Part shown: piece by piece, positions 9,432-53,170 of the stretch
Numbering within the stretch: position 1 is the first letter of the stretch
How the letters are laid out: each line of letters begins with the position of its first letter
Assembly (NCBI GenBank): GCA_016187335.1
Contig: JACPJW010000001.1
Location: 404,170 to 468,169 of the forward strand
Origin: Candidatus Aenigmatarchaeota archaeon
GTDB taxonomy: Archaea > Aenigmatarchaeota > Aenigmatarchaeia > GW2011-AR5
Reading direction: 5' to 3'
DNA length: 64,000 bases
Made by a program: the position numbers and the translations under genes
Notes under the pieces: model-generated
What the model saw: the letters and a program-made list of their open reading frames with translations, nothing else
Told to the model about the DNA's origin: nothing
Database searches by the model: none

Positions 9432-12146
9432 TTAATCCAGGAAATCGCCCTTCTTCAGCTTATTAGGAAGGTAGGTCTCGGACATGAACTTAAGGCCGCG
9501 GTGCGACAAAGCTTCTATCTCGGCTTTTATTCCTTTTTCTATCATCAGGTTGATTTCCTTCTTCCATCTCGGGTTCTTGCTAAACCACTCGTAGTTGAGT
9601 AGTTCCTTCGCGCGCTTTATGTCAACTTCCTTGCATTTTATTGTCGCTTTTTTCAGGTCATACTCAAATATATCCGATATAGTAAGACCTATGTATCTGG
9701 CTTCCGGTGTCGCAATCCGATCTGAGACGTGAGCTAGGCTTATGGATCCGGATTTGATAACTGAATAAATATAGAAGCCGTACGAATCACTGTCGCAGCA
9801 TACATATACAGGCAGCTTGTGATCTTGGTTCAGCCTTTGTATCAGCAGCCTTGTTCCGCGTGATGGCTGCCCGCCTGTGCCGATCAAAACGCACTTCTGT
9901 TTCTGCCAGAACTTGTCCTCATGAAGCCGCTCAAAGCCTGCGTTCTTCTCCACGACCAAGACAAAGTCCGCGTTGACTTTTTTGAAATCTATTTCATCCA
10001 CGGTGCTCGGTATGGACCATCCCCCGCTTCCGAGCTTTGACCAGTCTATGCTGTCGCCGCGGTCTTCAATAATAACGTTGCCGGCGACAATGCCCTTTCT
10101 GTCGGTGGTGAGGTGCAATTGCTCGCGCAGAACGTCTATAGCCACTTCTATGTCAACAATTATAGGGTCAGAATTATGTAGAATTATAAATCCATTACCA
10201 CCAATGAAATTCTCAGTAGGTTCGACTGAAAGATCAACTGTATATTCAGGAGTTGGAGCGTCATTTATTTCAACTATCTTGTCCCACATAATGTCACTAT
10301 TAGCTATGGTTTCAAGTTCGGATACCAGCTGTAAATCTGGAGAATACTTTTGTAACTGCATCAAGGCGTTATATAACACAGGTCTGCTTATCGATTCGTT
10401 TTTATTTTCTATATAACTCCATGAAAAGTGGTTCCATTCAACACGATCCTTACAGGACTTTCTGACTTTTTCTACCAATTTCCCTATGTTTGGTATCCTG
10501 TCAGAAGATACGTCGTGTTTCCGCGGCTTACTGAATCTTTTATCATTGATTATTTCAGCCATCAATTTTACATCTTCTCTATTACCTATTCTAATTTCAT
10601 ATGCGTTATGGTGATTAGGATTTTGGACGCTTCTTTTATAGCGATAAATTCTTGCAAAAATTCCAAGCCTAAGCAGTAAAAATACCAATCCGTTAGCCAG
10701 CTTTTCGCTAGTTGTGTGGTACCTTAATCTAAATTTTGGAAGAAAAGTACTACCGTCTCCAAGCATAAACGAGAAAAGAAACATCTGTATACAATTTTCA
10801 GGTGAATCAAGCAAAACACGCGGTATTTCTTTATTCCATGCTCTGCAAGGCTTATACCCAATAACATAAGTCAATATGTGACTCAAAGTATCGTAACCTA
10901 CATTTAGCTTATAAACTCCATCTTTACCTAAACGTATCTTTCCGCTTACACAGCTTTTACCAAATGATTTTTCAAAGCAAATCATAAACTGCTTGAGAAG
11001 CTCTGAAGATTTGTTAGAAATAGCTACATGGTATGATTTTCGTGGTTCAAAAAGTGAATGCGAGCCTTCGCTCAAAAGAAGCCCTAGTACAAATCCTAAA
11101 TTTTCATCTTTTTTTATTAAAGCGTTGTAATAGTTCTTTGCACCCCTTCTTCCAATTTTTATTTTAGGAAGCAGATCTGAAATATCAATTCCGGTCGTTT
11201 TTACGACTTTAATTGGAATTGTTTTCCAGTTAATCCAGTTGGCTTTAACGTCAGACCATACATTCTTGTATCCGAAGTCATTTGAAATATTTTTTAGCTT
11301 ATCATTACCTATAAGCCTGATTATTTCTTTTATCGTGTCTTTATCCGATTTTATGTAAAATTCTTTTAATACACTTTCAGGGCAATTTTCAATAAGCTTT
11401 TCTAAAATATTTATATGATCAGAATTAACACCGACTTCTATTTTTCTTGGGATGGCTATCCAGTCTCCTATCTTTAGTTCTGATGTTTTTATGGATACAG
11501 GTTTTCCTTCAGAATTTGTAAACAAGCTGTGAGATTTAGTTACTTTGACACGCCTGCCACTTGATGTGATTATTTCCTTTACAATGTTAGGCGGGTGTTT
11601 CATTACCATCAGAACTTTCTGCTCCTTAATCCTGTAATTTTCATCGAAAGCGCAAACCTTAATGTCGCCAACTAAAATCTTCTTTTTATTACCATCATCA
11701 TAAATAATTCTCCCAAATTTTTCAGCATGGTCTACGACTTCGCTTGCTTGAGCTATTCTGAGTTCATCGTTTATTCTTACCAACAAAGGTTCATCGGGGC
11801 ATACAGACTCGCTCTGCTCGTCAAAGGTATTCTCGTTGCTGTCCGGCAGTGTCCTTTTCAGGTTGTAGTACATGTCTCGGATGCTGGCATGGATTTTCTC
11901 ATCAATGAGCGATTTACAGAAAGCACCGACCATAAGCGTCTGCATGAACTTCTTGGAGTGCGCGACGTTGAAGTAATACCTTTTTGCTGTCTTGGTGCCA
12001 AGCCTGAGCTGGCCGGTTTTCCTGTCGTAAACTACGTTGGAAAGAGCGCGTATTGGTATCTCTATGTTCGGGTTCTCGCCTTTCTCTATGTCATGCACGA
12101 CTTTCTTGCCCAGAACATTCAGTTCCTTTCTTACGTCTTTTTCCAT
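9432..12146 (-). CDS. top6A: DNA topoisomerase VI subunit A (Spo11-like) interrupted by an intein
   Basis: 904 aa; extein N-part (IPIRALSNVVYD...RDMYY) and C-part (WSKLGSGGWSIPS, Toprim LIGTGGQPSRGTR) match Top6A; central 543 aa has intein/LAGLIDADG blocks. Confidence 0.85.
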   Translation of the reverse strand: MEKDVRKELNVLGKKVVHDIEKGENPNIEIPIRALSNVVYDRKTGQLRLGTKTAKRYYFNVAHSKKFMQTLMVGAFCKSLIDEKIHASIRDMYYNLKRTLPDSNENTFDEQSESVCPDEPLLVRINDELRIAQASEVVDHAEKFGRIIYDDGNKKKILVGDIKVCAFDENYRIKEQKVLMVMKHPPNIVKEIITSSGRRVKVTKSHSLFTNSEGKPVSIKTSELKIGDWIAIPRKIEVGVNSDHINILEKLIENCPESVLKEFYIKSDKDTIKEIIRLIGNDKLKNISNDFGYKNVWSDVKANWINWKTIPIKVVKTTGIDISDLLPKIKIGRRGAKNYYNALIKKDENLGFVLGLLLSEGSHSLFEPRKSYHVAISNKSSELLKQFMICFEKSFGKSCVSGKIRLGKDGVYKLNVGYDTLSHILTYVIGYKPCRAWNKEIPRVLLDSPENCIQMFLFSFMLGDGSTFLPKFRLRYHTTSEKLANGLVFLLLRLGIFARIYRYKRSVQNPNHHNAYEIRIGNREDVKLMAEIINDKRFSKPRKHDVSSDRIPNIGKLVEKVRKSCKDRVEWNHFSWSYIENKNESISRPVLYNALMQLQKYSPDLQLVSELETIANSDIMWDKIVEINDAPTPEYTVDLSVEPTENFIGGNGFIILHNSDPIIVDIEVAIDVLREQLHLTTDRKGIVAGNVIIEDRGDSIDWSKLGSGGWSIPSTVDEIDFKKVNADFVLVVEKNAGFERLHEDKFWQKQKCVLIGTGGQPSRGTRLLIQRLNQDHKLPVYVCCDSDSYGFYIYSVIKSGSISLAHVSDRIATPEARYIGLTISDIFEYDLKKATIKCKEVDIKRAKELLNYEWFSKNPRWKKEINLMIEKGIKAEIEALSHRGLKFMSETYLPNKLKKGDFLD
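10173..11801 (-). mobile_element. Intein with LAGLIDADG homing-endonuclease domain inside top6A
   Basis: Begins with Cys after ...DEQSESV, block B GRRVKVTKSHSLFT, LAGLIDADG-like LGFVLGLLLSEGS and FLFSFMLGDGS, ends GFIILHN followed by Ser; region is A/T-rich relative to exteins. Confidence 0.7.
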
Positions 12147-12184: not shown

Positions 12185-13837
12185 CTATTCTTCTTCAGCT
12201 TCTTCAGGCTTTTCTTTTTTAGGGTTCGACTGCGCAGCCGCCAGCTGCGGCGGCTGGACCGTTTCCAGCTCTTCGAAATCTTTCATCTTGTTCTTGTTTT
12301 CTATTATGGACAGCAGCTTCTTTTCTATAACAGCATCCTTGTCGCCCGTGAGAACGGACAGCGACGAGGCAACCTCCTTTGCGTACCTTTCAAAAATCTG
12401 TATCCTGCGTTTCTGCTCGCCGGCGCGCCGCTTTCCCGAAAGGTAGCGGGACAGCTCACGTGCCGCGTCCTGTATTGCCAGCTTCATTTCCTTGACAATT
12501 TCCGGGTACGGCGCAATGGCTTCTTTGCTTTCCGAAACGAAGGGCACCCACACGGACGACATGTGTATTACGAGAATCATGGGGCCTGATGGCAGCGAGT
12601 TCTTCGGATGCTGCAAGCCATACCGCTTCCAGTCCACGTCCTTGGCAGCTTCCGTCGTTGCGCAAGCGCCTGCTTGGTAGAGAAGAGGCACCCTGTTTGC
12701 AATTCTTATCACGTCTATCTGCTCTTCCAAAGCGCCTACATTGCCGAAAACGATGCCGATTTCAATCTGGAAAGGCATGCCGCGATAAACTTCACTTTCC
12801 CTTCCAATCACGGTTATAAATTCAGCCTGCGGATATTCCTTTTTCAGGCTTTTCTCGAGCTCTGCTTTCCCTACAGGCGACAGGCAATCCAAAGGAGGCC
12901 TTTGTATCTTGACTTTCTGCATGGCGCTGAGCAGTTTTTCTATTCCCGCCCTGTCAAGCGCCTGGGGCTTTCCGTTCGGATCTATTTTTGCCGTTTTGCA
13001 TATTTCCTTTGCTGTCTGCGACCCCACGGAAGAGAACTCGTTTACAAGAAATGACTGCACGGTCTTTGAATTTGTTTTTGACAGGAACCGCTGCAGAATT
13101 CCGAACTCAACGCCGTAGGGGTGCATTCTCATTTCCTTCGGCGGCTTCGGGAGATCGTCAAAGCTCCTTGGAAATGCCATCTTTGTTCCGTCGGGGGCGT
13201 GATAATTTATCTTTGCGAAAGGGTTTGAGATGCTCGTCTGCTTGAGATAGTCGTCAACGCCCTGCGTTTTCCTGTAGCGCCCGACAACATCAATTTCAAC
13301 TTTAACGCCGCGCTCCAGCCCGTCTTCCAGCGTTTCTTCCTTCACGATTTCCGGCTCGTTCTTGCTTGTGTTGATAAAAAGCTCGTAGTAACTGACCTTT
13401 TTCTTTTCGTCGGTCCTGGACCATACCTTTGTGGGGGAGCCTGTTGTAAGCTGCGAATAGAGCACCACAGCGGAAATTCCTATGCCCTGCTGGCCTCTTG
13501 ACTGGCGAAGACGGTGGAACTTGCTGCCATAAAGCAGTTTTCCGAAAATTCTGGGCACTTGTTCTTTCACGATGCCCGGTCCGTTGTCCTGTACGGTCAC
13601 GCGGAAGCGGTCCTCCCCGGTCTGCTTTATTTTCACGTTGATGTCCGGCAGAATGCCTGCTTCCTCGCATGCGTCTAGGGAGTTGTCCACGGCTTCCTTT
13701 ACGGTCATCAGCAGCGCTTTTGTCGGGTTGTCAAAGCCCAAGAGATGCTTGTTTTTTTCAAAGAACTCGCTTATTGATATTTCCTTCTGCTCTTTAGCAA
13801 ACTCCTCAGCGGTTTTTTTCGGGGATTTGTCAGACAT
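12185..13837 (-). CDS. top6B: DNA topoisomerase VI subunit B (GHKL ATPase)
   Basis: 550 aa; Bergerat-fold motifs (EAVDNSLDA, DNGPGI, GQQGIG) and transducer domain; directly upstream of top6A. Confidence 0.9.
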   Translation of the reverse strand: MSDKSPKKTAEEFAKEQKEISISEFFEKNKHLLGFDNPTKALLMTVKEAVDNSLDACEEAGILPDINVKIKQTGEDRFRVTVQDNGPGIVKEQVPRIFGKLLYGSKFHRLRQSRGQQGIGISAVVLYSQLTTGSPTKVWSRTDEKKKVSYYELFINTSKNEPEIVKEETLEDGLERGVKVEIDVVGRYRKTQGVDDYLKQTSISNPFAKINYHAPDGTKMAFPRSFDDLPKPPKEMRMHPYGVEFGILQRFLSKTNSKTVQSFLVNEFSSVGSQTAKEICKTAKIDPNGKPQALDRAGIEKLLSAMQKVKIQRPPLDCLSPVGKAELEKSLKKEYPQAEFITVIGRESEVYRGMPFQIEIGIVFGNVGALEEQIDVIRIANRVPLLYQAGACATTEAAKDVDWKRYGLQHPKNSLPSGPMILVIHMSSVWVPFVSESKEAIAPYPEIVKEMKLAIQDAARELSRYLSGKRRAGEQKRRIQIFERYAKEVASSLSVLTGDKDAVIEKKLLSIIENKNKMKDFEELETVQPPQLAAAQSNPKKEKPEEAEEE

Positions 13838-34749: not shown

Positions 34750-35802
34750 TCACTTGCACAGCTTCGCCAGGTGCTCCTTGAACTTTTCCCAGTCGCTGGT
34801 ATTCAGAGTCGCGCCGGCTGCGGCTTCGTGCCCGCCTGCCGATGCTTTCAGCCCACGAGCGGCTTTCTGCAGCAGCTTTGCCACATCCATGCCGCTGTGC
34901 GTTCTTGCGGACATCTTCGCTTTCGCGCCGCTTTTCTCGTAAACGACAATTATTTTGTTCTTGTGCTTTTCCGCCAGCTTTGTTGAAATTATGGAAGAAA
35001 TATTGTATCTTGATTTTATGCCGTACAAGACAAGTCTGCCTAAAATCTCCGAGTTAACTTCGGCATCGGCGAACGTCATGTCAATTTCCGACTGCAGTTC
35101 CCTGTAGGCTTCCGTCATCTTTTCCGCGTCTTTGCTTTCCAAGAATTCTTTGTAGTCTTCGTGCCTTGCCAGAACGTTCACGATTTCCTCGCACGTCATT
35201 TTTTTCGTTGCTCTTGACGACTCGATCATGAAAGAAATCATTGAAAAATCCCCCATCGCATCATGGCCGTATCTATTTTTCACTTCGTCAACAAGCTCCT
35301 TTGAGTGGGAAAGGTCGTAATCCGCAACCATGCCTATTGCGGCGACCCATAAATACTGCGAAATATCGTGGACCCTTGAGCAAATCTTGTAAGCTAAATA
35401 AGAAGTGGACTGGTAGATCTTTGGATTCCTGAATCGCGGGTTGTAATGCACGACGTTGCCGCTGTTTAAATTTTTGAAGACCTGGTGGTGGTCGATAATC
35501 AGGATGTCGCAGATGCCCTTCAGCTTTTTTACAACATCCTCTTTCTGGTCTATGGCCATGTCAAGAAATATCATCTTGTTGGGCAGAGAAGTCTGAACCC
35601 TTTTTATCAAATTTTTCTCGGGCGGCATAGGCTGCGCTATGATGAAAGGCTTCTTCACGCCGTTCTTTTCCAGGGTTTTCATGACGAGCAAACAGGAAGC
35701 AATGCCGTCGCTGTCGTTGTTGAATATGATGACTACGCCGTCTTTTGCCGTTGTGTTCTTCAGGAACTCTACGGTCTTGTCTGTTTCAGTCATGACAATC
35801 AA
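34750..35802 (-). CDS. DHH/DHHA1 phosphoesterase (RecJ/NrnA-like)
   Basis: 350 aa; DHH motifs (NNDSDGIASC, IIDHH) and DHHA1 GGHEAAAG. Confidence 0.75.
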   Translation of the reverse strand: MIVMTETDKTVEFLKNTTAKDGVVIIFNNDSDGIASCLLVMKTLEKNGVKKPFIIAQPMPPEKNLIKRVQTSLPNKMIFLDMAIDQKEDVVKKLKGICDILIIDHHQVFKNLNSGNVVHYNPRFRNPKIYQSTSYLAYKICSRVHDISQYLWVAAIGMVADYDLSHSKELVDEVKNRYGHDAMGDFSMISFMIESSRATKKMTCEEIVNVLARHEDYKEFLESKDAEKMTEAYRELQSEIDMTFADAEVNSEILGRLVLYGIKSRYNISSIISTKLAEKHKNKIIVVYEKSGAKAKMSARTHSGMDVAKLLQKAARGLKASAGGHEAAAGATLNTSDWEKFKEHLAKLCK

Positions 35803-35903: not shown

Positions 35904-38900
35904 TTACTTTATTTTCTTTATCTCTATACCTATTTTCCTGCCTTCAAAGTCCAGTTTTTCCCCTTCCGCCTTCGCGAACACGACCTTCGCCGCCCCCACT
36001 TCGTTCTTTATTTCTTTTTCCCATTTCTTCAGTTCCCCGGCCCCTTCTATTTTCAAGGCAATTTTGTCCATGACAACAAGCCCTGATTTCTTGCGCATAT
36101 CCTGCACTTTTCTGACAACCTCGCGGAGCAGGGCCTCTTTTTTCAGCTCGTCGGTGAGCAGCGTGTCCAGTTCCAGCTTGCCGCCGTCAAAGGGAACGCC
36201 ATTGTTCGTGTTTGCAAAAACAGCGGCTTTGACATTGCACATATTCTTTATTATTTCTGCAAAAGGCTTGAGATTCTCTTTGCTGTCCACTGTAAGCTTT
36301 GCCAGGGGCCACCTTATTTTTATGTTGCTTTCATGCCTTTGCGAGTTGGATGCTTCGACAAGGTTTTTTACGATATTCATGGCTTTCTCCGCCTTTGCGC
36401 TGATGTATTTTGAATCGTACTTAGGCCAGTCCCTGGTATGCACGGATTCCTTTTCGCCGAGGATTTCGAGGTTTATCTGCTCGGCGAGATACGGCGTTAT
36501 AGGCGCTAAAAGCTGCGATGTTTTTTCTGCTATCTCGTATAAGGTGTAAAAGGCCGCTTCCTTGTCTTTCCCTGAATACGCCGGCCATACGCGGTCCCGG
36601 ATCAGCTTTATGTACCACCTTGAAAAGTCGTTTACTAGGAAATCATGCAGCTCTGTTACGGCCTTGTGGCCGTTGTAGCTGCAGAAATGCTGGGTGCAGT
36701 TCTTTATGGTGGTGTTCAGGCGCGAAAGAATCCATTTGTCCTCTATATTCAGTTTTTTTGGCATTGAACCGCTTGACGCGTCGGTCTGTTTCGGTTTTGT
36801 TGCGTAGGTCTTCACGAAATTAAAGCTGTTTTCTATCACAATAAGAGACCTCGCAATGGCTTCAACGTCCGGCCACTTGAAGTAGAAGTCATCCCACGGC
36901 GCGCTTGACAGCAGATAGAAGCGAAGCACGTCCCGGCCGTATTTTTTTATAATGTCCTCCGGCTCGACAATATTTCCTTTGCTCTTTGACATTTTCACGC
37001 CGTGAGCGTCAAGTATGAAGCCGTGGAAAAGTATGTTCGTGAAGGGCTTCTCATCAAATGTTATTACCGACGTTATCAGCTCGGCGTTCCACCAGCCTCT
37101 GATTTGATCCGGGCCTTCTGTCTGGAAGTCGCTTGGCCACAGTTTCTTGAACAACGCCTTGTTTTTCGGGTAGCCGAGGGATGCCCATCCGGCAAGGCCG
37201 GCGTCAAACCAGACATCAAGGACATCGGCTATCCGTTTCATCGCAGAGCCGCACCTGCATTTCAAAAAAACGTTATCAATGTAAGGCCTGTGCAAATCAC
37301 GGGGTATTTCCGGCAATTCGTCAGCGGAGCCGATGACCTTGACGCTTTCGCATTTCTCGCATATCCATATCGGCAGCGGTATGCCCCAGTAGCGCTGCCT
37401 TGATATAGGCCAGTCGCCGAGGTTTTCAAGCCAGTTGTTGAACCGTTGCTTTGCCCATTCAGGGTACCAGTTCACATTCTTGTTTTCCTTGATGAGCTTG
37501 TCCCTTATCTTCGTCACGCGGAAGAACCACTGCGACACGGATATCAGCAGCAGGGGAGTGCTGCAGCGCCAGCATTGCGGGTAGTCGTGCGTTATCGTTT
37601 CCTCCTTCAGCAGCAGGTCTTTTTCCTTCAGCAGTTCAATTATTTTTTTGTCGCTTGCCTTGACAGGATTTCCAGCAAAAGCACCGCATTTCTCGTCAAA
37701 AGTGCCGTTGATTTTCACCGGAGATATTATGGGCAATTTGTTTTCCAGACCGACTTTGTAGTCCTCCTGTCCGTGCCCGGGGGCGGTGTGGACAAGCCCG
37801 GTGCCGTCTTCCATGCTCACGTACTGCTCTGAAAGCACAACCTTGTGCGCGCCTTTGAGCTGCTGCTGGAATGTAAAAATGTCCCGGAGCGGATGCTCGT
37901 ATTCTGTCCCAGCCAGCTTTTTTCCGGGAAACGTTTCCACAATGCTGAATGGCAGTCCGGCTTTCTTCATAACAGCTTCAAGAAGCGGCTTTGCCAGGAT
38001 AAGAAATTCAGTTCCACCAGAACTTTCCACCATTACCTTGACATATTCGTGCTTCGGATGCGCCATGATGCCTGTATTAGCTGGTAACGTCCACGGCGTT
38101 GTCGTCCATATGACCAGGAACACGTTTTCTTGTCCTTTCACCGGAAACTTAACATAAATAGAAGGGTCCTTGGCTTTGCTGTATTCTATTTCGTTGTACG
38201 CAACGGCTGTTTCGCAATTATGTGTCAAGAAGCCGTTAGTTATAAAGTTGTGATGAGTTTCAACTGCTATATCACATACTTTCCGTTTCCCCTTATATTT
38301 TATAGAATTTATTTCATCCCAAATAAATCCGTCTCTGAGGTCTTTTGCAGCATTTTTTAACCATGCATCGAATGCAGGGGTATATTTGGCAGCACGAACT
38401 GACTTAGACTTGCCATAAACCACATGCCTTACATAAAGTTCAGGTAAGTTAAGCATAATTGCGATTTTGCTGCAAGGGATCTTAGAATGTCTTAGTGATA
38501 AGATCCTACCTTTCAATTTTCTGTATTGTTTCTCAAGTGATTTTTTGTACAGAAGATAGCCCAAAACATGCGAAGCCCTGATTTTTCTGTATTTACAGTA
38601 CTCGTATCCTAAATACCGTATGAATTTAATGAGGTTGTAATCGTTGCAATCTATACTGATAGTGGTCTTCGATTTTTCTATTTTATTAACAATATTTCTT
38701 TCTGTTTTTATTTCTCCTGTCGATACCCCAAACTTATTGATAAGCGCGCATATCTGTTTTGCAAATTCCATCCCGTTTTCTTCTAGATGTCTATTTTTTG
38801 TAAGGTAAAGCCTCAGGCATTCAAATCCCTTTCCATATTTTCTGGGGCTTATTATCTGGAGTTCGCTTCCGAAGTAAGATGCCAAAAATTCCCTTGTTAA

Positions 38901-40421
38901 TTTTTTATTGGACTTTATCCATTTTGGCACAAATGTCTTTGTTTCCGTCTTTTTTCCTATAGGACAGCCTAGCGTTATAAGCAAAACAGCCAAAGACAAA
39001 GAATAACATCTCATGGATGTTGTAAATCCCTTTATTGCTCTGCCATTTACGACAGATTTAGTTGGCACGGTTGAAATATCCGAATGGCTAAAGCCAAGAA
39101 TCTTTAGGTCTTTTTGGATTTCTTTTAAATCTTCCTCTTTTCCGCAGAAATCTATGCCAAATACCGGGAATTTTCTGTTTTTAGATGTACGTACAACAAT
39201 AGATCCATCACCAAAAATATGACCTGCCAATCTGGCTAAAATAAATGATTTTGTAGATTTACTGTGAAGAGGTATCAGTTCTTTATCTTTCAATTCATTT
39301 ATTATAGAATCGTAGCGCGTAAACGTATTTACTTTTAAAATTTTTGCTACCCATGATTTTGAAACTCTTATTTTGAAGGCGTTTTGTATTTCTTTAATAA
39401 TTTTAGTATATGAATAGTTATTTTTTCTAAGTTCGGCAACAAAGTTCTTAATTTTAATTTTCGAATGACTTGTAAGGTCGTTAAATTTATGCAGATCTCT
39501 GAAAACTATATTTTCTAAGTTCTGCAAAGTAAACATTACATTATTCTCATTTACAAGAGCTTTGCCTGTTTCCGTAATTTCCGGCAGTCTGCTTTCCACA
39601 TTATTATATACGGCCACTTTGGTTCCTATTCTGAGCTTAGAAAGAGTCATCCATCCATCTTGCGTCCAGAACGGATGATCACTCGAAGCGATTAGTTTCT
39701 TTCCTGTTAGCGTTTTTACAAGAAATACATTATCTTCCAATTCCACATAGCCCAGAGGTTTTGCCGTAGTTAGAAGTTTAGAATTAGTATCAACAGCTAC
39801 AACCGTGTTGTGTTTCCAGCAGCCTTTCAGTTCTCCTATTTTTCTTGTTCCCCCTTCAACAAGAATAGTAGAATTAGGATCAACGCATCTCGGGCATACA
39901 TGCACCGGATAAAGACCCTTGTAGAGCAGTCCCTTGTCGTAAGCGGTCTTGAACGTGTGCCACGCGCCCTCTATGTACTCGTTGTTGTACGTTATGTAAG
40001 GGTTGTCCCAGTCCATCCACACGCCAAGATTCAGGAACTGGTTATTCATGACAGAAATGAACTGGCTGACGAACGCCCTGCATTCCTTGTTGAATCTCTC
40101 GACGCCTAGCCTTTCTATATCAGCCTTTGATTTTATCTCCAGTTTTTGCTCGACCTTGTTTTCTATCGGCAGCCCGTGGGTGTCGTAGCCCGGCTGGTCC
40201 CATACGTCGAAGCCGGACATGCGCCAGAATCGGATGTAGCTATCCTTCAATATTTTGTTCCAGGCAGTGCCTATGTGTATGTAGCCCGTGGCGTAAGGCG
40301 GGCCGTCAAGGAAGTAGAATTTCTTCTTTCCTTTTCTTTTTGTCTTGGCCTTCTGGTAAATGCCGTCTTTTGCCCAGAACTCGGCGATTTCTTCTTCTTT
40401 TTTCTTGCGGCTTTCTATCAT
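35904..40421 (-). CDS. ileS: Isoleucyl-tRNA synthetase interrupted by an intein
   Basis: 1505 aa; HIGH (YIHIGT), KMSKS (KMSKSKGN), WPISRQRYWGIPLP; 557-aa insertion between CPR and CETA of the zinc-binding region. Confidence 0.9.
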   Translation of the reverse strand: MIESRKKKEEEIAEFWAKDGIYQKAKTKRKGKKKFYFLDGPPYATGYIHIGTAWNKILKDSYIRFWRMSGFDVWDQPGYDTHGLPIENKVEQKLEIKSKADIERLGVERFNKECRAFVSQFISVMNNQFLNLGVWMDWDNPYITYNNEYIEGAWHTFKTAYDKGLLYKGLYPVHVCPRCVDPNSTILVEGGTRKIGELKGCWKHNTVVAVDTNSKLLTTAKPLGYVELEDNVFLVKTLTGKKLIASSDHPFWTQDGWMTLSKLRIGTKVAVYNNVESRLPEITETGKALVNENNVMFTLQNLENIVFRDLHKFNDLTSHSKIKIKNFVAELRKNNYSYTKIIKEIQNAFKIRVSKSWVAKILKVNTFTRYDSIINELKDKELIPLHSKSTKSFILARLAGHIFGDGSIVVRTSKNRKFPVFGIDFCGKEEDLKEIQKDLKILGFSHSDISTVPTKSVVNGRAIKGFTTSMRCYSLSLAVLLITLGCPIGKKTETKTFVPKWIKSNKKLTREFLASYFGSELQIISPRKYGKGFECLRLYLTKNRHLEENGMEFAKQICALINKFGVSTGEIKTERNIVNKIEKSKTTISIDCNDYNLIKFIRYLGYEYCKYRKIRASHVLGYLLYKKSLEKQYRKLKGRILSLRHSKIPCSKIAIMLNLPELYVRHVVYGKSKSVRAAKYTPAFDAWLKNAAKDLRDGFIWDEINSIKYKGKRKVCDIAVETHHNFITNGFLTHNCETAVAYNEIEYSKAKDPSIYVKFPVKGQENVFLVIWTTTPWTLPANTGIMAHPKHEYVKVMVESSGGTEFLILAKPLLEAVMKKAGLPFSIVETFPGKKLAGTEYEHPLRDIFTFQQQLKGAHKVVLSEQYVSMEDGTGLVHTAPGHGQEDYKVGLENKLPIISPVKINGTFDEKCGAFAGNPVKASDKKIIELLKEKDLLLKEETITHDYPQCWRCSTPLLLISVSQWFFRVTKIRDKLIKENKNVNWYPEWAKQRFNNWLENLGDWPISRQRYWGIPLPIWICEKCESVKVIGSADELPEIPRDLHRPYIDNVFLKCRCGSAMKRIADVLDVWFDAGLAGWASLGYPKNKALFKKLWPSDFQTEGPDQIRGWWNAELITSVITFDEKPFTNILFHGFILDAHGVKMSKSKGNIVEPEDIIKKYGRDVLRFYLLSSAPWDDFYFKWPDVEAIARSLIVIENSFNFVKTYATKPKQTDASSGSMPKKLNIEDKWILSRLNTTIKNCTQHFCSYNGHKAVTELHDFLVNDFSRWYIKLIRDRVWPAYSGKDKEAAFYTLYEIAEKTSQLLAPITPYLAEQINLEILGEKESVHTRDWPKYDSKYISAKAEKAMNIVKNLVEASNSQRHESNIKIRWPLAKLTVDSKENLKPFAEIIKNMCNVKAAVFANTNNGVPFDGGKLELDTLLTDELKKEALLREVVRKVQDMRKKSGLVVMDKIALKIEGAGELKKWEKEIKNEVGAAKVVFAKAEGEKLDFEGRKIGIEIKKIK
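38217..39887 (-). mobile_element. Intein with LAGLIDADG homing-endonuclease domain inside ileS
   Basis: Starts CVDPNSTILVEGG, contains ILARLAGHIFGDGSI, ends FLTHN followed by Cys; A/T-rich relative to exteins. Confidence 0.7.
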
Positions 40422-40600: not shown

Positions 40601-41038
40601 ATGACAGAATGCGAAATGTGCGGCTGGAACGGCGATTTGGTCAGGGCCAACGTCGAGGGCACGATCCTGAGGGTCTGCAAAAAATGCTCCGTCCTGGGCG
40701 CAAAAATGGAAGAAGCGAAAACGGAGCAGAAGCCGCTGAGTTTAGCCAGAAAGATGGAAATCTCCGAATTCGTGCCGGATTTTGCCGAGAAAATAAGGCA
40801 CGCCAGGGAGTCAGCAGGAATGAACAAAAGCGACCTGGCGCGCAGGATTGGCGTGAGCCCGTCATTGCTGTCGCGCATCGAGAAGGGCATGCGCCCTACC
40901 GATGCTTTGGCAAGAAAGCTGGAAAAAGAGCTGAAGATAGGCTTGTTCTACACGGACACATTGACCACGGTAAAGGCGGAAAGAACGCCTGAAGTAACCC
41001 TAGGCGACGTCGTTGAGCTGAGGATAAGGAAGAAGTAG
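40601..41038 (+). CDS. mbf1: Archaeal multiprotein bridging factor 1 (zinc ribbon plus HTH)
   Basis: 145 aa; N-terminal CEMCG...CKKC ribbon and HTH MNKSDLARRIGVSPSLLSRIEKG. Confidence 0.75.
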   Translation: MTECEMCGWNGDLVRANVEGTILRVCKKCSVLGAKMEEAKTEQKPLSLARKMEISEFVPDFAEKIRHARESAGMNKSDLARRIGVSPSLLSRIEKGMRPTDALARKLEKELKIGLFYTDTLTTVKAERTPEVTLGDVVELRIRKK

Positions 41039-46533: not shown

Positions 46534-48327
46534 ATGGCAAAGGAAAAAATAGTGCCTGATACGTCAGTGATTATTTCAGGCATCTTAACGGATCTGATAG
46601 CCAAAGGCGAGCTGTCGGACGCGGAAATAATCATGCCGGAGTTCGTTGTGGAAGAGCTTCGCGCCCAGTCGTCAAAAGGCAGGGAAATAGGCTTCAAGGG
46701 CCTGGAAGAACTGAAGAAATTGCGGGAGCTCAGCGGCGAGAAAATCAAGCTTGTCAAAATAGGCCGCAGGCAGACGATGGAGGAAATACAATTGGCAAAA
46801 TACGGCAGGATAGACGCTCTAATCATTGATATTGCCAGGGAATACGATGCCGTTCTTTACACTGCTGACTATGTCCAGTTCCTCGTGTGCGATGCCGAGG
46901 GCATCAAGACGCGCTACTTCAAGCCTTACGAAAAAAAAATAGAAACAAAGCTTTCCTCGATGCTGACCAAGGATACAATGTCCCTGCATCTGAAGGAAGG
47001 GACGGTGCCGATGGCGAAGCGAGGCCTGCCCGGTAAGTTTTCTTTAGTCAAGCTGAGGGAGGAGCTGCTGACAGAGGACGAACTGGAAGAGATTATCAAG
47101 GAGGTCATGGACGCGGCCAGGTATGAAGAGGACACGTTCATAGAAGTGGGCGGCCACGTGGCTTCTGTCGTGCAGATGGGCGACATGAGGATAGCGATAG
47201 CACGTCCTCCTTTCTCCGACGGCGTAGAGATTACAGTGGTCAGGCCAATAATCAAGCTGACGCTGGAAGACTACAAGCTTTCTGAAAAGCTCAAAGAGCG
47301 CCTTGCAAAGCGCGCTGACGGAATTCTCATAGCCGGCCCGCCCGGCTCAGGAAAAAGCACTTTTGCCGCCTCCCTTGCGGAGTTTTATGAAAGACAGGGC
47401 AAGATTGTGAAGACAATGGAATCACCAAGGGACTTGCAGGTAGGCCCGGAGATAACGCAGTACAGCAAATTGAAGGGCTCTTTCGAGAATACAGCGGACA
47501 TGCTCCTGCTTGTGAGACCGGACTACACTGTTTTCGACGAGGTGCGGAAAACCGAGGACTTTCTTATATTCAGCGACATGCGCCTTGCGGGAATAGGCAT
47601 GATCGGCGTTGTCCATGCCACGGAGCCCGTTGACGCCGTGCAGCGCTTCATCGGCAGGATTGAACTGGGCATGGTGCCTCACATCATTGACACAATCATA
47701 TACATCAAGGACGGCGTCATCAAAAATGTTTACGTATTGTCTTTGGTCGTGAGGACGCCGACAGGCATGACAGAAGCTGACCTGGCAAGGCCTGTTGTTG
47801 AAGTCAGGGATTTTGAAACAGGAACAATGGAATACGAAATATACACCTACGGCGAGGAGAACGTAATCATACCGGTGAAAGAGAAAAAAGAATCAGCGCT
47901 GCAAAGGCTTGCCAAAAAACACATATTCGAGGAAATCAAGCGCTTCGACAGGGACGCGCAGGTGGAATTCATGAGCGACGAGAAGATCCTCGTCAAGGTG
48001 GACAACGAAATTATCCCAAGAATCATCGGCAAGGAAGGCGTGACTATAAAGCATCTGGAAGAAAAGCTGGGATTGCACATTGACATCCTGCCGAAGGTGG
48101 AAACATTCGGAAAGGAGACGAAGTTTGACCAGGAAGAGAGCGGCGCGTACATGCAGTTCGTTTTCAGCGAGAAGCAGGGCAGGATTGTCAACTTCTACGC
48201 AGGAAAGGATTATTTGTTCTCGGCAACAATAGGCAAGAACGGCCGCATCAAGGTCAGCAAGGATTCCGATATAGGCAAGGAAGCCATGAAGGCGCTGGCC
48301 AAAGGGACCCTGAAGACGTTTGTATAA
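46534..48327 (+). CDS. PIN-domain/PilT-family ATPase with C-terminal KH domain
   Basis: 597 aa; N-terminal PIN-like region, Walker A GPPGSGKST, KH motif IIGKEGVTIKHLEEKLG. Confidence 0.8.
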   Translation: MAKEKIVPDTSVIISGILTDLIAKGELSDAEIIMPEFVVEELRAQSSKGREIGFKGLEELKKLRELSGEKIKLVKIGRRQTMEEIQLAKYGRIDALIIDIAREYDAVLYTADYVQFLVCDAEGIKTRYFKPYEKKIETKLSSMLTKDTMSLHLKEGTVPMAKRGLPGKFSLVKLREELLTEDELEEIIKEVMDAARYEEDTFIEVGGHVASVVQMGDMRIAIARPPFSDGVEITVVRPIIKLTLEDYKLSEKLKERLAKRADGILIAGPPGSGKSTFAASLAEFYERQGKIVKTMESPRDLQVGPEITQYSKLKGSFENTADMLLLVRPDYTVFDEVRKTEDFLIFSDMRLAGIGMIGVVHATEPVDAVQRFIGRIELGMVPHIIDTIIYIKDGVIKNVYVLSLVVRTPTGMTEADLARPVVEVRDFETGTMEYEIYTYGEENVIIPVKEKKESALQRLAKKHIFEEIKRFDRDAQVEFMSDEKILVKVDNEIIPRIIGKEGVTIKHLEEKLGLHIDILPKVETFGKETKFDQEESGAYMQFVFSEKQGRIVNFYAGKDYLFSATIGKNGRIKVSKDSDIGKEAMKALAKGTLKTFV

Positions 48328-51832: not shown

Positions 51833-53170
51833 ATGAGGAAATATCTGTTATCAATAGTCCTGCTGCTGCTTTCGTCTGTACCTGTTTTTGCAGTGGGCAA
51901 CCTCACGGTTTTCAGCGTTCCTTTATCACAGCCGGCTGTCTACGCAAACACCAACCAGTCCGTTAACGTCCTTAACCTGACCCTGAACGTGACGGCGGGC
52001 AGCGGCGCGGACGGCGTCATCAACATAACTGTCATCAATATTACGGTGACCAACAGCAGCGAAGGCAACCTGTCAGCGGGCAATATATCAGCGGTTGAGG
52101 TCAGGAACAGCACGGGGTTCCCGATAGCAAGGAACACAACAGTCAATCCTGCAAACAACATGACGTTCACGATTTCAATCCCGGGAGGGCTGACCATAAA
52201 CACATCTAATGCGACCATATGGATTGCCATCAACATATCAAGGTCGGCGGCGCGCTTCCTGAACATATCAGTGAACATAACGGGTCCCGGGGAAATAGGC
52301 ACGAACAGCTCTGTGAACAATATCACGATATCAGGCGTTTCAATAAAGTCAAACGGCGTGCAGATACAGAATTTACATTCAAACTCAACAATATCGCCGC
52401 GCTTTGTGGACACGGGCGTTGAGAACCAGTCGTTCACTTACACCTTGGTTCCGCCGACTGGAACGGATGCAATAAAGAACGTCAGTATTTCGTTCCCGGC
52501 CAATTACACCTTGTCCAAGCTCATTTCAATAATGGTTGGCGGCGGCGTCCCGGACGGCGCGACAAACAATACAGCCGTCAACGGCATAAACATTTCCCTG
52601 AGCACGGCCACGACCCAGACAATACAGGTAAACTTCACCGCCAACACTTCCGTCAATCCTATCCAGAACAGGGCGTTCTCATCAACCCTGGACGGAGGAA
52701 ACCTCTCTGCCGTGTCAACTGATCCCACGCTGGAAGGGGTGAATGTAAGCACACAGCCCATACTGAACCTTACGAACGTCACCCTGGTAAAAAGCACTGC
52801 AATAATCAACGGCACCGATTACTGGGAATTCAATTTCACTTTGAATTACACTGCCAACATATCAACAGGAGGCCTGATTCAGTTCAGGCTCACGGACTGG
52901 AACACTTCTTCCGGCAGCACGCTTGCATTGAACAATTCATTGTGCGATGGCAGCAGGTGCGCGTCCCTGAGGAACGAGACAACCATGAACACCACAGGGA
53001 AATTCAACATAACGAATGATTACGAATCTTTCACAAAGGGAATCACCATATCGTCCATAACACAGGGCACCCTGACAATACTGGTCTTGAGAATGGTAAT
53101 ACCTTCAAATGCCCCGACATCATCCAACTGGCAGGCTGCTTACGGATTTTTGTTCAGGTCAAGCCCTTGA
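51833..53170 (+). CDS. Secreted surface protein, extremely N-glycosylation-sequon rich
   Basis: 445 aa; signal peptide MRKYLLSIVLLLLSSVPVFA; about 40 N-x-S/T sequons counted by hand. Confidence 0.6.
   Translation: MRKYLLSIVLLLLSSVPVFAVGNLTVFSVPLSQPAVYANTNQSVNVLNLTLNVTAGSGADGVINITVINITVTNSSEGNLSAGNISAVEVRNSTGFPIARNTTVNPANNMTFTISIPGGLTINTSNATIWIAINISRSAARFLNISVNITGPGEIGTNSSVNNITISGVSIKSNGVQIQNLHSNSTISPRFVDTGVENQSFTYTLVPPTGTDAIKNVSISFPANYTLSKLISIMVGGGVPDGATNNTAVNGINISLSTATTQTIQVNFTANTSVNPIQNRAFSSTLDGGNLSAVSTDPTLEGVNVSTQPILNLTNVTLVKSTAIINGTDYWEFNFTLNYTANISTGGLIQFRLTDWNTSSGSTLALNNSLCDGSRCASLRNETTMNTTGKFNITNDYESFTKGITISSITQGTLTILVLRMVIPSNAPTSSNWQAAYGFLFRSSP

What the first reader, a model, noticed from the sequence alone, without database searches (positions are those of the whole stretch)
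38217..39887. Large LAGLIDADG intein in isoleucyl-tRNA synthetase
A 557-residue insertion splits the zinc-binding CPR/CETA region: it starts CVDPNSTIL, carries ILARLAGHIFGDGSI, and ends THN followed by Cys. Two intein-bearing essential genes in one 64-kb window indicates an intein-rich genome.
Basis: partly seen in the sequence, partly recalled or inferred. Interest (0 to 1): 0.55.

Follow-up and report, generated by a model that had tools for sequence, protein, structure and literature searches.

The report
Mobile intein inside archaeal isoleucyl-tRNA synthetase
The isoleucyl-tRNA synthetase gene of this DPANN (Aenigmarchaeota) archaeon is interrupted, exactly inside a zinc-binding Cys-x-x-Cys motif, by a textbook self-splicing intein with a homing endonuclease; the mechanism is ordinary, but I found no paper describing an intein in this host protein.

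Summary
Confirmed. One uninterrupted 1505-codon ORF (35904..40421, minus strand) encodes an archaeal-type IleRS. It carries a 557-residue in-frame insertion at exactly 38217..39887.

- **Intein chemistry:** all class 1 intein residues are present: Cys1, block B S-x-x-H71, block F D539, and H556-N557 followed by Cys+1.
- **Exact insertion site:** intein-free orthologues, up to 89% identical, read VHVCPR|CETAVAYNE. The intein therefore sits between Arg and the second Cys of the CPRC zinc knuckle (Cys181/Cys184 in T. thermophilus IleRS).
- **Evidence of mobility:** twelve other Aenigmarchaeota-like IleRS carry an allelic intein at the same site. They are scattered over the IleRS tree, each next to an intein-free sister. 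GC3 is 0.31 in the intein against 0.62 in the exteins.
- **Evidence of function:** the catalytic D227 and E342 are invariant, and dN/dS is about 0.08.

Two helical modules flank the nuclease core. The first is modelled as a helix-turn-helix fold; the second is only inferred to be one.

A second intein sits in Top6A in the same window. This is a new member (new host and site) of a known kind, of modest interest.

The parts
35904..40421 (-). IleRS precursor ORF (1505 aa: 178-aa N-extein, 557-aa intein, 770-aa C-extein, plus stop codon)
   Evidence: It is a single ORF. TIGR00392 ileS scores 921 bits. Pfam finds tRNA-synt_1, Anticodon_1 and DUF5915. It is identical to P0001, which NCBI names 'MAG: isoleucine--tRNA ligase [Candidatus Aenigmarchaeota archaeon]'.
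39888..40421 (-). N-extein (residues 1-178), ending ...VHVC(-3)-P-R(-1)
   Evidence: It aligns to solved IleRS structures continuously across the junction.
38217..39887 (-). Intein, 557 aa, from Cys1 to Asn557
   Evidence: Boundaries come from the translation and from the alignment with four intein-free orthologues. Pfam and TIGRFAM intein profiles match. The AF2 model has pLDDT 91.4, and its best fold matches are HE-containing inteins.
39588..39887 (-). N-terminal half of the Hint splicing domain (blocks A and B; Cys1, S68-x-x-H71 within IASSDHPFW at 39666..39692)
39273..39578 (-). Accessory module 1 (residues 104-205), a small three-helix HTH-like domain with its core at 39333..39416
38595..39272 (-). 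LAGLIDADG endonuclease core (residues 206-431). Motif 1 is ILARLAGHIFGD227GSI at 39198..39242 and motif 2 is FLASYFGSE342LQI at 38853..38888
38343..38594 (-). Accessory module 2 (residues 432-515), a long helix plus an HTH-like pair of helices (IPCSKIAIMLNLPELYVRHVVYG at 38412..38480)
   Evidence: Secondary structure is from the model. The central part is absent from P0012 and P0013. Similarity to module 1 is weak (hhalign E 5e-4, probability 32%). The HTH assignment is an inference.
38217..38342 (-). C-terminal part of the Hint domain (block F VCD539IAVETHHNFI at 38241..38279; block G NGFLTH556N557 at 38217..38237)
   Evidence: TIGR01443 matches. It aligns to DnaB and DnaE inteins.
35904..38216 (-). 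C-extein (residues 736-1505) starting with Cys+1 (codon 38214..38216), the second Cys of the CPRC knuckle
   Evidence: C736 is invariant in 17 IleRS sequences. It aligns to Cys184 of 1ILE.
10173..11801 (-). Second, unrelated-site intein in the window (543 aa, in Top6A ORF 9432..12146).
   Evidence: Pfam Intein_splicing scores 81.6 bits and LAGLIDADG_3 60.3 bits. Boundaries are ESV|CPDEPLL...ILHN|SDP, and GC is 0.347 against 0.472.

Best explanation
This is a canonical class 1 intein with an embedded monomeric, two-motif LAGLIDADG homing endonuclease. It is inserted in frame in the IleRS gene of an Aenigmarchaeota (DPANN) archaeon, between Arg and the second Cys of the CPRC zinc knuckle at the base of the CP1/editing insertion.

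**Splicing (inferred from the conserved residues).** The gene is translated as a 1505-aa precursor. Four steps then follow:
1. Cys1 attacks the Arg(-1) carbonyl (N-S acyl shift, assisted by block B S68/H71 and block F D539).
2. Cys+1 takes over the N-extein by trans-thioesterification.
3. Asn557 cyclises, assisted by H556, and releases the intein.
4. An S-N shift restores the CPRC peptide.

This yields a 948-aa IleRS whose zinc knuckle can only form after splicing.

**Homing (inferred).** The freed 557-aa protein acts as a homing endonuclease. D227 and E342, at the ends of the two LAGLIDADG helices, bind Mg2+ and cut the intein-less IleRS allele around ...CATGTxTGCCCxCGx|TGxGAxACxGC.... The flanking HTH-type modules probably extend DNA contact. 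Repair from the intein-bearing copy spreads the element.

**Shown:** the anatomy, the precise insertion, the fold, the conservation of catalytic residues, purifying selection, and a patchy, host-incongruent distribution.

**Inferred:** actual splicing, cleavage activity, and the DNA-binding role of the modules.
For: **Precise in-frame insertion.** There are no stops. Four intein-free orthologues read VHVCP[RH]|C[EQ]TAVAYNE, and 13 carriers all have C...HN|C at the same site.

**Profile matches.** Pfam Intein_splicing scores 58.5 bits. TIGR01445 and TIGR01443 are above cutoff, and the intein part of NF038162 scores 212 bits over residues 1-557.

**Conservation and selection.** Catalytic D227 and E342 and the splicing residues are invariant across alleles down to 37% identity. 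dN/dS is about 0.08 in every sub-region.

**Mobility.**
- The closest exteins (P0008 at 89%, P0014 at 70%) lack the intein.
- The inteins of P0002-P0010 are 58-75% identical to this one, although their exteins are only 52-62% identical.
- The carriers are scattered on a 118-sequence extein NJ tree. Ten of the 13 pair with an intein-free sister, and P0009, P0010 and P0041 branch singly at the base.
- Synonymous difference between this window and L002 is lower in the intein (0.69) than in the exteins (0.81-0.87).
- Intein GC is about 0.35 in hosts with extein GC of 0.49 and 0.42.

**Genomic context.** The intein-free locus (L001) and an intein-bearing locus (L002) have the same gene order.
Against: - No experiment exists. 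Splicing and cleavage are inferred from sequence alone.
- The window's intein itself gets no Pfam LAGLIDADG_3 hit even at E<=10. Only the allelic P0013 and more distant relatives do. The LAGLIDADG assignment therefore rests on the motifs and the predicted fold.
- Motif 2 ends in ...GSEL rather than ...DG.
- dS is close to saturation, so dN/dS and the pS comparison are rough.
- Higher intein than extein identity could partly reflect slower intein evolution rather than transfer.
- The intein-bearing sequences were enriched by the search design, because the query contained the intein.
Confidence: 0.85

Rival explanations
1. The intein is splicing-competent but its endonuclease is no longer active. 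The element would be fixed in this lineage and inherited vertically, with the nuclease domain kept only because the precursor needs it to fold and splice.
For: Motif 2 is atypical (GSEL). There is no Pfam LAGLIDADG_3 hit for this copy. Purifying selection could act on folding and splicing rather than on cleavage. Many full-length inteins in databases have inactive nucleases (general knowledge).
Against: Both metal-binding acidic residues are invariant in 13 alleles and in 7 non-IleRS relatives. The distribution is patchy, with an intein-free sister for 10 of the 13 carriers. The intein is less diverged than its host gene. Its codon composition has not been ameliorated (GC3 0.31 against 0.62).
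Confidence: 0.15
2. The intein acts as a conditional (redox- or zinc-gated) switch for IleRS. In the precursor, extein Cys(-3) and intein Cys1 form a C-P-R-C motif. This could form a disulfide, or bind Zn2+ together with the CWRC pair, blocking step 1 of splicing until conditions become reducing or zinc-poor. That would tie translation capacity to the cell's state.
For: The precursor sequence reads C(-3)-P-R-C1. This is the same Cys(-3)/Cys1 arrangement as the redox trap described for the P. abyssi MoaA intein. Zinc inhibition of inteins is documented (review PMC10663303). Cys(-3), Cys1 and Cys+1 are invariant in all carriers.
Against: The cysteines are all explained by their ordinary roles as IleRS zinc ligands and intein nucleophiles, so their conservation says nothing about regulation. 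The sporadic distribution with intein-free sisters argues for a selfish element rather than a retained regulator. There is no experimental data.
Confidence: 0.1
3. It is an artefact or a non-splicing insertion: a chimeric metagenome assembly joining low-GC foreign DNA into ileS, or a dead insertion that inactivates the gene.
For: There is a sharp GC drop (0.35 against 0.49) exactly over the insert. The source is a metagenome-assembled genome.
Against: The insertion is codon-exact and in frame with no stops. It restores a perfect IleRS when removed. It recurs at the same codon in 12 other independently assembled proteins from ENA, JGI, NCBI and Logan. All catalytic residues are intact, and dN/dS is 0.08. 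No second ileS was found in the window.
Confidence: 0.02

Closest known systems
Archaeal HE-containing inteins with extra DNA-binding domains: PI-PfuI (1DQ3), PI-PkoII/PI-TkoII (2CW7/2CW8), and the Tli/Pho VMA inteins (7QSS/7QST)
   Different: Sequence identity is only 12-21%. Their hosts are RNR, DNA polymerase and V-ATPase, not an aminoacyl-tRNA synthetase. The accessory modules here are two small HTH-like helical units flanking the nuclease core, not the PI-PfuI 'stirrup' domain.
Inteins of RtcB-family proteins (NCBIfam NF038162) and their clade, which also includes inteins in Pus10, ribosomal protein S12, RFC, Rpb2 and MCM
   Same: They are the closest sequence relatives outside IleRS. NF038162 scores 212 bits over the whole intein. 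Identity is 25-38% across the nuclease and C-terminal parts. They share the same LAGLIDADG signature, and some also carry HTH or wHTH inserts.
   Different: The host proteins and insertion sites differ. The N-terminal splicing half and module 1 are much less conserved, and most matches start near residue 190.
Candida/Debaryomycetaceae ThrRS intein (PMC5056185)
   Same: It is the one published intein in an aminoacyl-tRNA synthetase that my literature searches returned.
   Different: Its host is a class II enzyme in a eukaryote, at an unrelated site and of independent origin. The present host is a class I IleRS in a DPANN archaeon.
Free-standing monomeric LAGLIDADG endonucleases I-DmoI (2VS8) and I-Tsp061I (2DCH)
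   Different: Those are intron-encoded, have no Hint domain and no HTH modules. Sequence identity is 13-18%.
P. abyssi MoaA intein 'redox trap' (Callahan et al. 2011, as reviewed in PMC10663303)
   Same: An N-extein Cys at -3 and the catalytic Cys1 form a CxxC motif in the precursor.
   Different: Redox control was demonstrated for MoaA. Here it is only a structural possibility, and the CxxC is a by-product of insertion into a zinc knuckle.

Membership tests
Class 1 intein (Hint-fold protein-splicing element) | Nucleophile Cys/Ser at intein position 1 | tested here: met
   Cys1 is present and invariant in 13 alleles.
Class 1 intein (Hint-fold protein-splicing element) | Block B T/S-x-x-H motif | tested here: met
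   The motif is S68-S-D-H71. H71 and P72 are invariant, and position H-3 is S or T in the alleles.
Class 1 intein (Hint-fold protein-splicing element) | Block F Asp, and block G penultimate His plus terminal Asn | tested here: met
   D539, H556 and N557 are present. TIGR01443 scores 22.6 bits against a cutoff of 15.6.
Class 1 intein (Hint-fold protein-splicing element) | Cys/Ser/Thr at C-extein position +1 | tested here: met
   Cys+1 (C736) is invariant in all 17 IleRS sequences aligned.
Class 1 intein (Hint-fold protein-splicing element) | In-frame insertion whose removal restores a colinear host protein, with intein-free orthologues existing | tested here: met
   P0008, P0014, P0018 and P0101 read VHVCPR|CETAVAYNE. 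The spliced sequence aligns without a gap to solved IleRS structures.
Class 1 intein (Hint-fold protein-splicing element) | Hint fold and profile match | tested here: met
Class 1 intein (Hint-fold protein-splicing element) | Autocatalytic excision with extein ligation | not testable with these tools
   This needs expression of the precursor, followed by SDS-PAGE and mass spectrometry.
LAGLIDADG homing endonuclease (monomeric, two-motif) | Two LAGLIDADG helices, each ending in a conserved acidic residue | tested here: met
   Motif 1 is LAGHIFGD227G and motif 2 is LASYFGSE342L. D227 and E342 are invariant in 20 sequences.
LAGLIDADG homing endonuclease (monomeric, two-motif) | Pseudo-dimeric alpha-beta-beta-alpha-beta-beta-alpha fold | tested here: met
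LAGLIDADG homing endonuclease (monomeric, two-motif) | Match to a curated LAGLIDADG sequence profile (Pfam LAGLIDADG_3, PF14528) | tested here: inconclusive
   This copy gets no hit even at E<=10. The allelic intein in P0013 scores 32.3 bits against a cutoff of 22.5, and 9 of 52 relatives hit the profile.
LAGLIDADG homing endonuclease (monomeric, two-motif) | Mg2+-dependent site-specific cleavage of the intein-less allele | not testable with these tools
   There is only indirect support: a patchy, host-incongruent distribution and dN/dS of 0.08.
Isoleucyl-tRNA synthetase (TIGR00392, class Ia) | Equivalog profile above the trusted cutoff, with class I HIGH-type and KMSKS motifs | tested here: met
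   TIGR00392 scores 921.2 bits against a cutoff of 621.4. The sequence contains ...GYIHIGT... and ...VKMSKSKG.... The best PDB matches are IleRS structures, at E 1e-188.

The most novel reading that the evidence does not exclude
The intein is not only a selfish element. Because Cys(-3) and Cys1 recreate a CxxC motif in the precursor, at the very place where the mature enzyme binds zinc, splicing of this essential translation enzyme could be reversibly gated by redox state or zinc availability. That would give a tiny-genome DPANN archaeon a post-translational brake on translation.

More broadly, this intein clade (IleRS, RtcB, Pus10, ribosomal protein S12) may preferentially target the translation and tRNA machinery. 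This would contrast with the replication-centred intein distribution described so far.
Probability: 0.1. Interest if true: 0.6.

Novelty: new member of a known kind. Interest (0 to 1): 0.3.

Why it matters
**New host and site.** It adds a class I aminoacyl-tRNA synthetase, and a zinc-knuckle site, to the list of intein hosts. Published surveys describe the translation core as intein-poor (PMC4760082). The only aaRS intein my searches found in the literature is the fungal ThrRS one.

**A natural test set.** The 13 carrier sequences, 10 of them paired with an intein-free sister, could be used to study the homing cycle in DPANN archaea.

**Practical consequences.**
- Automatic annotation calls the 1505-aa protein simply 'isoleucine--tRNA ligase'. 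Alignments, phylogenies or marker-gene sets that use IleRS would be distorted by the 557-aa insert.
- The endonuclease, with its HTH modules, is a candidate new rare-cutting specificity.

None of this changes what is understood about intein mechanism.

Tried and rejected
- **Pfam scan of the intein alone at E<=10**. It gave no LAGLIDADG or HTH family, only sub-threshold noise (RNase_P p29, HTH_56). The nuclease and HTH assignments had to come from structure prediction.
- **The search for homologous proteins with the intein alone**. It returned only 7 proteins and missed the allelic IleRS inteins, presumably because of the word pre-filter. The exhaustive phmmer search was needed.
- **Genome-contig scan with the single intein**. 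It gave only 2 loci (L003, which is the P0004 contig, and an intein in a Methanosarcinales contig). This was too few for a taxonomic survey, and the source genome itself was not in that collection.
- **Literature searches**. I searched intein together with IleRS, isoleucyl-tRNA synthetase, tRNA ligase, DPANN, Aenigmarchaeota and ribosomal protein S12. No description of an IleRS intein turned up; the co-occurrences were incidental. The supplementary tables of Novikova et al. 2016 were not available, and InBase could not be consulted. 'Not described' therefore means 'not found in the searchable library'.
- **hhalign of accessory module 1 against module 2**. Similarity was only weak (E 5e-4, probability 32%), so I do not claim that the two modules are a duplication.
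- **Assembly chimera or pseudogene.** Considered and rejected (see the rival explanations).
- **Bacterial-intein-like or Hedgehog-type Hint domain.** Considered and rejected, because the +1 nucleophile, the terminal HN, and the exact restoration of the host sequence fit a true intein.


Full report
**1.

The minus strand carries one uninterrupted ORF, 35904..40421, of 1505 aa. Its residues 179-735 map to window 38217..39887. That is 557 residues, starting CVDPNSTIL and ending NGFLTHN. They are preceded by VHVCPR and followed by CETAVAYNE. ILARLAGHIFGDGSI lies at intein residues 216-230.

The insert is also visible in base composition. GC falls from about 0.49-0.52 to 0.30-0.37 across it. Overall GC is 0.348 in the intein against 0.489 in the exteins, and GC3 is 0.312 against 0.624.

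**2. The host gene**

The whole protein matches the IleRS equivalog TIGR00392 at 921 bits against a cutoff of 621. Pfam finds tRNA-synt_1, Anticodon_1 and DUF5915.

The identical sequence is in NCBI as 'MAG: isoleucine--tRNA ligase [Candidatus Aenigmarchaeota archaeon]', on a 918-kb contig. The organism is therefore a DPANN archaeon.

With the 557 residues removed, the 948-aa product aligns without a gap across the junction to solved IleRS structures (8C9D at E 9e-189, 1ILE at 3e-184).

In T. thermophilus IleRS the junction falls between Arg183 and Cys184 of C181-P-R-C184. The partner pair CWRC aligns to Cys389/Cys392. From memory of Nureki et al. 1998, these four cysteines hold a zinc ion where the CP1/editing domain leaves the Rossmann fold. 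Here the four Cys (C176, C736, C950, C953 in precursor numbering) are invariant in 17 aligned sequences.

**3. It is an intein**

- **Sequence profiles.** Pfam Intein_splicing scores 58.5 bits, E 9e-16, against a cutoff of 35.8. TIGR01445 (N-terminal splicing region) and TIGR01443 (C-terminal) both exceed their cutoffs. The intein portion of NF038162 (intein-containing RtcB) matches over the full 557 residues at 212 bits. Against PDB sequences, the two ends match the DnaB and DnaE mini-inteins.
- **Catalytic residues.** All class 1 positions are present: Cys1, block B S68-x-x-H71, block F D539, and H556-N557 followed by Cys+1.
- **Precise insertion.** Four intein-free orthologues, including P0008 with 89% extein identity, read VHVCP[RH]|C[EQ]TAVAYNE. 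Twelve further IleRS proteins of 1416-1551 aa carry an insert at exactly this codon, each with C1 and HN|C.

**4. Anatomy from structure prediction**

An AlphaFold2 model built on a 20-sequence alignment is confident, with mean pLDDT 91.4 and pTM 0.89.

- **Whole chain.** The top Foldseek hits against the PDB are endonuclease-containing inteins: TliVMA (7QSS) at 8e-16, then PI-TkoII, PI-PfuI, PhoVMA and PI-SceI. Free LAGLIDADG enzymes and mini-inteins follow.
- **LAGLIDADG motifs.** Motif 1 is LAGHIFGD227G and motif 2 is LASYFGSE342L. The Gly-Asp of motif 1 and the F-G-x-E of motif 2 are invariant in all 13 IleRS alleles and in 7 relatives from other hosts.
- **A weakness.** This copy gives no Pfam LAGLIDADG_3 hit. 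The allelic P0013 does, at 32 bits against a cutoff of 22.5, and so do 9 of 52 more distant relatives.

**5. Two accessory modules**

Two helical modules flank the nuclease core, at residues about 104-205 and 432-515.

- The short allelic inteins of P0012 and P0013 (457 and 461 aa) lack the centre of both modules. They keep the core and the catalytic residues.
- Module 2 contains an HTH-like helix pair. It resembles module 1 only weakly (hhalign E 5e-4, probability 32%).
- I infer that they are extra DNA-contact domains for the endonuclease, comparable in role to the accessory domains of PI-PfuI and PI-SceI. This is not shown.

**6. Evidence that the element is or was recently mobile, and functional**

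- **Identity pattern.** The nearest exteins (P0008 at 89%, P0014 at 70%) have no intein. Yet the inteins of P0002-P0010 are 58-75% identical to this one, while their exteins are only 52-62% identical.
- **Tree distribution.** On an NJ tree of 118 intein-stripped IleRS sequences, the 13 carriers are scattered. Ten of them sit next to an intein-free sister; P0009, P0010 and P0041 branch singly near the base.
- **Synonymous divergence.** Between this window and the P0002 contig (L002), the proportion of synonymous differences is lower in the intein (0.69) than in the exteins (0.81-0.87).
- **Selection.** Between the same two loci, dN/dS is about 0.08 in every part of the intein, including the nuclease core (0.078).
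- **Composition.** Intein GC is about 0.35 in both hosts, although their extein GC is 0.49 and 0.42.
- **Synteny.** Gene order (MBF1-like HTH gene, then IleRS, then a DHH phosphoesterase) is the same in the intein-free locus L001 and the intein-bearing locus L002. The insertion is therefore the only difference.

Caveats: dS is near saturation. The carriers were enriched because the query contained the intein.

**7. Relatives**

An exhaustive phmmer search of 1.84 billion representative proteins found 1225 at E<=1e-3 and 92 at E<=1e-30. Only two IleRS representatives were among them.

The next relatives are 25-38% identical, mostly from residue 190 onward. They sit in:
- RtcB (13 of 52 examined);
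- ribosomal protein S12 (9 of 52);
- thioredoxin (5), RFC (5), Rpb2 (4) and Pus10 (3);
- helicases, MCM, a radical-SAM protein and a methyltransferase.

**8. Is it known?**

Full-text searches found no description of an intein in IleRS or in Aenigmarchaeota.

- The only aaRS intein that surfaced is the fungal ThrRS intein (PMC5056185).
- Novikova et al. state that core transcription and translation components contain few inteins (PMC4760082).
- The protein itself is deposited and auto-annotated simply as IleRS.
- InBase and that survey's supplement could not be checked.

I therefore classify it as a new member (new host and site) of a thoroughly known kind.

**9. A speculative extra**

In the precursor, extein Cys(-3) and intein Cys1 form C-P-R-C. 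This is the arrangement of the Cys(-3)/Cys1 disulfide 'redox trap' described for the P. abyssi MoaA intein. Zinc is also a documented splicing inhibitor (PMC10663303).

Redox or zinc gating of IleRS maturation is therefore possible. All the cysteines are already explained by their ordinary roles, however, and the patchy distribution looks selfish rather than regulatory. I give this reading about 10%.

**10. Verdict**

Both the observation and the interpretation are confirmed. The claim of an 'intein-rich genome' rests on only two inteins in 64 kb: IleRS, and Top6A at 10173..11801. Interest is modest.

Noticed in passing
window 10173..11801 (-), inside ORF 9432..12146 (-): There is a second full-length intein (543 aa, ESV|CPDEPLL...FIILHN|SDP) in topoisomerase VI subunit A. 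It matches Pfam LAGLIDADG_3 (60 bits). It shows the same foreign low-GC signature as the IleRS intein: GC 0.347 and GC3 0.304, against 0.472 and 0.599 for its exteins. The adjacent Top6B ORF (12185..13837) has no intein. The survey table I read lists Top6B, not Top6A, as an intein host (PMC4760082).
   Followed up: partly
P0133, P0135, P0137 and six others (not in the window): Among the closest non-IleRS relatives of this intein are proteins of about 650 aa in which a roughly 500-aa intein splits ribosomal protein S12/S23 (Pfam PF00164, around profile position 35). A literature search for an S12 intein found nothing relevant.
   Followed up: partly
P0012 and P0013 against window 39273..39578 and 38343..38594: Two allelic IleRS inteins (457 and 461 aa) lack the centres of both helical accessory modules at once, but keep the LAGLIDADG core and the catalytic residues. 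The two modules seem to be gained or lost together.
   Followed up: partly
window 40601..41038 (+): The divergently oriented upstream neighbour encodes a small protein with an N-terminal Cys-rich (zinc-ribbon-like) segment and a C-terminal HTH_3-type domain. It looks like an archaeal MBF1. The same neighbour, and the downstream DHH/DHHA1 gene (34750..35802), are conserved next to ileS in L001 and L002.
   Followed up: partly
window 51833..53170 (+): This 445-aa ORF has no Pfam family at E<=0.001.
   Followed up: no
window 46534..48327 (+): This 597-aa ORF combines an N-terminal PIN domain, a P-loop ATPase (T2SSE/AAA-like) and a KH domain. The fusion is unusual-looking and was not examined further.
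   Followed up: no
L001 6590..7672 and L002 843..1682: The related contigs carry a Cas12f1/TnpB-like gene (L001) and a DDE transposase (L002) a few kb from ileS. These are other mobile elements in the same neighbourhoods.
   Followed up: no
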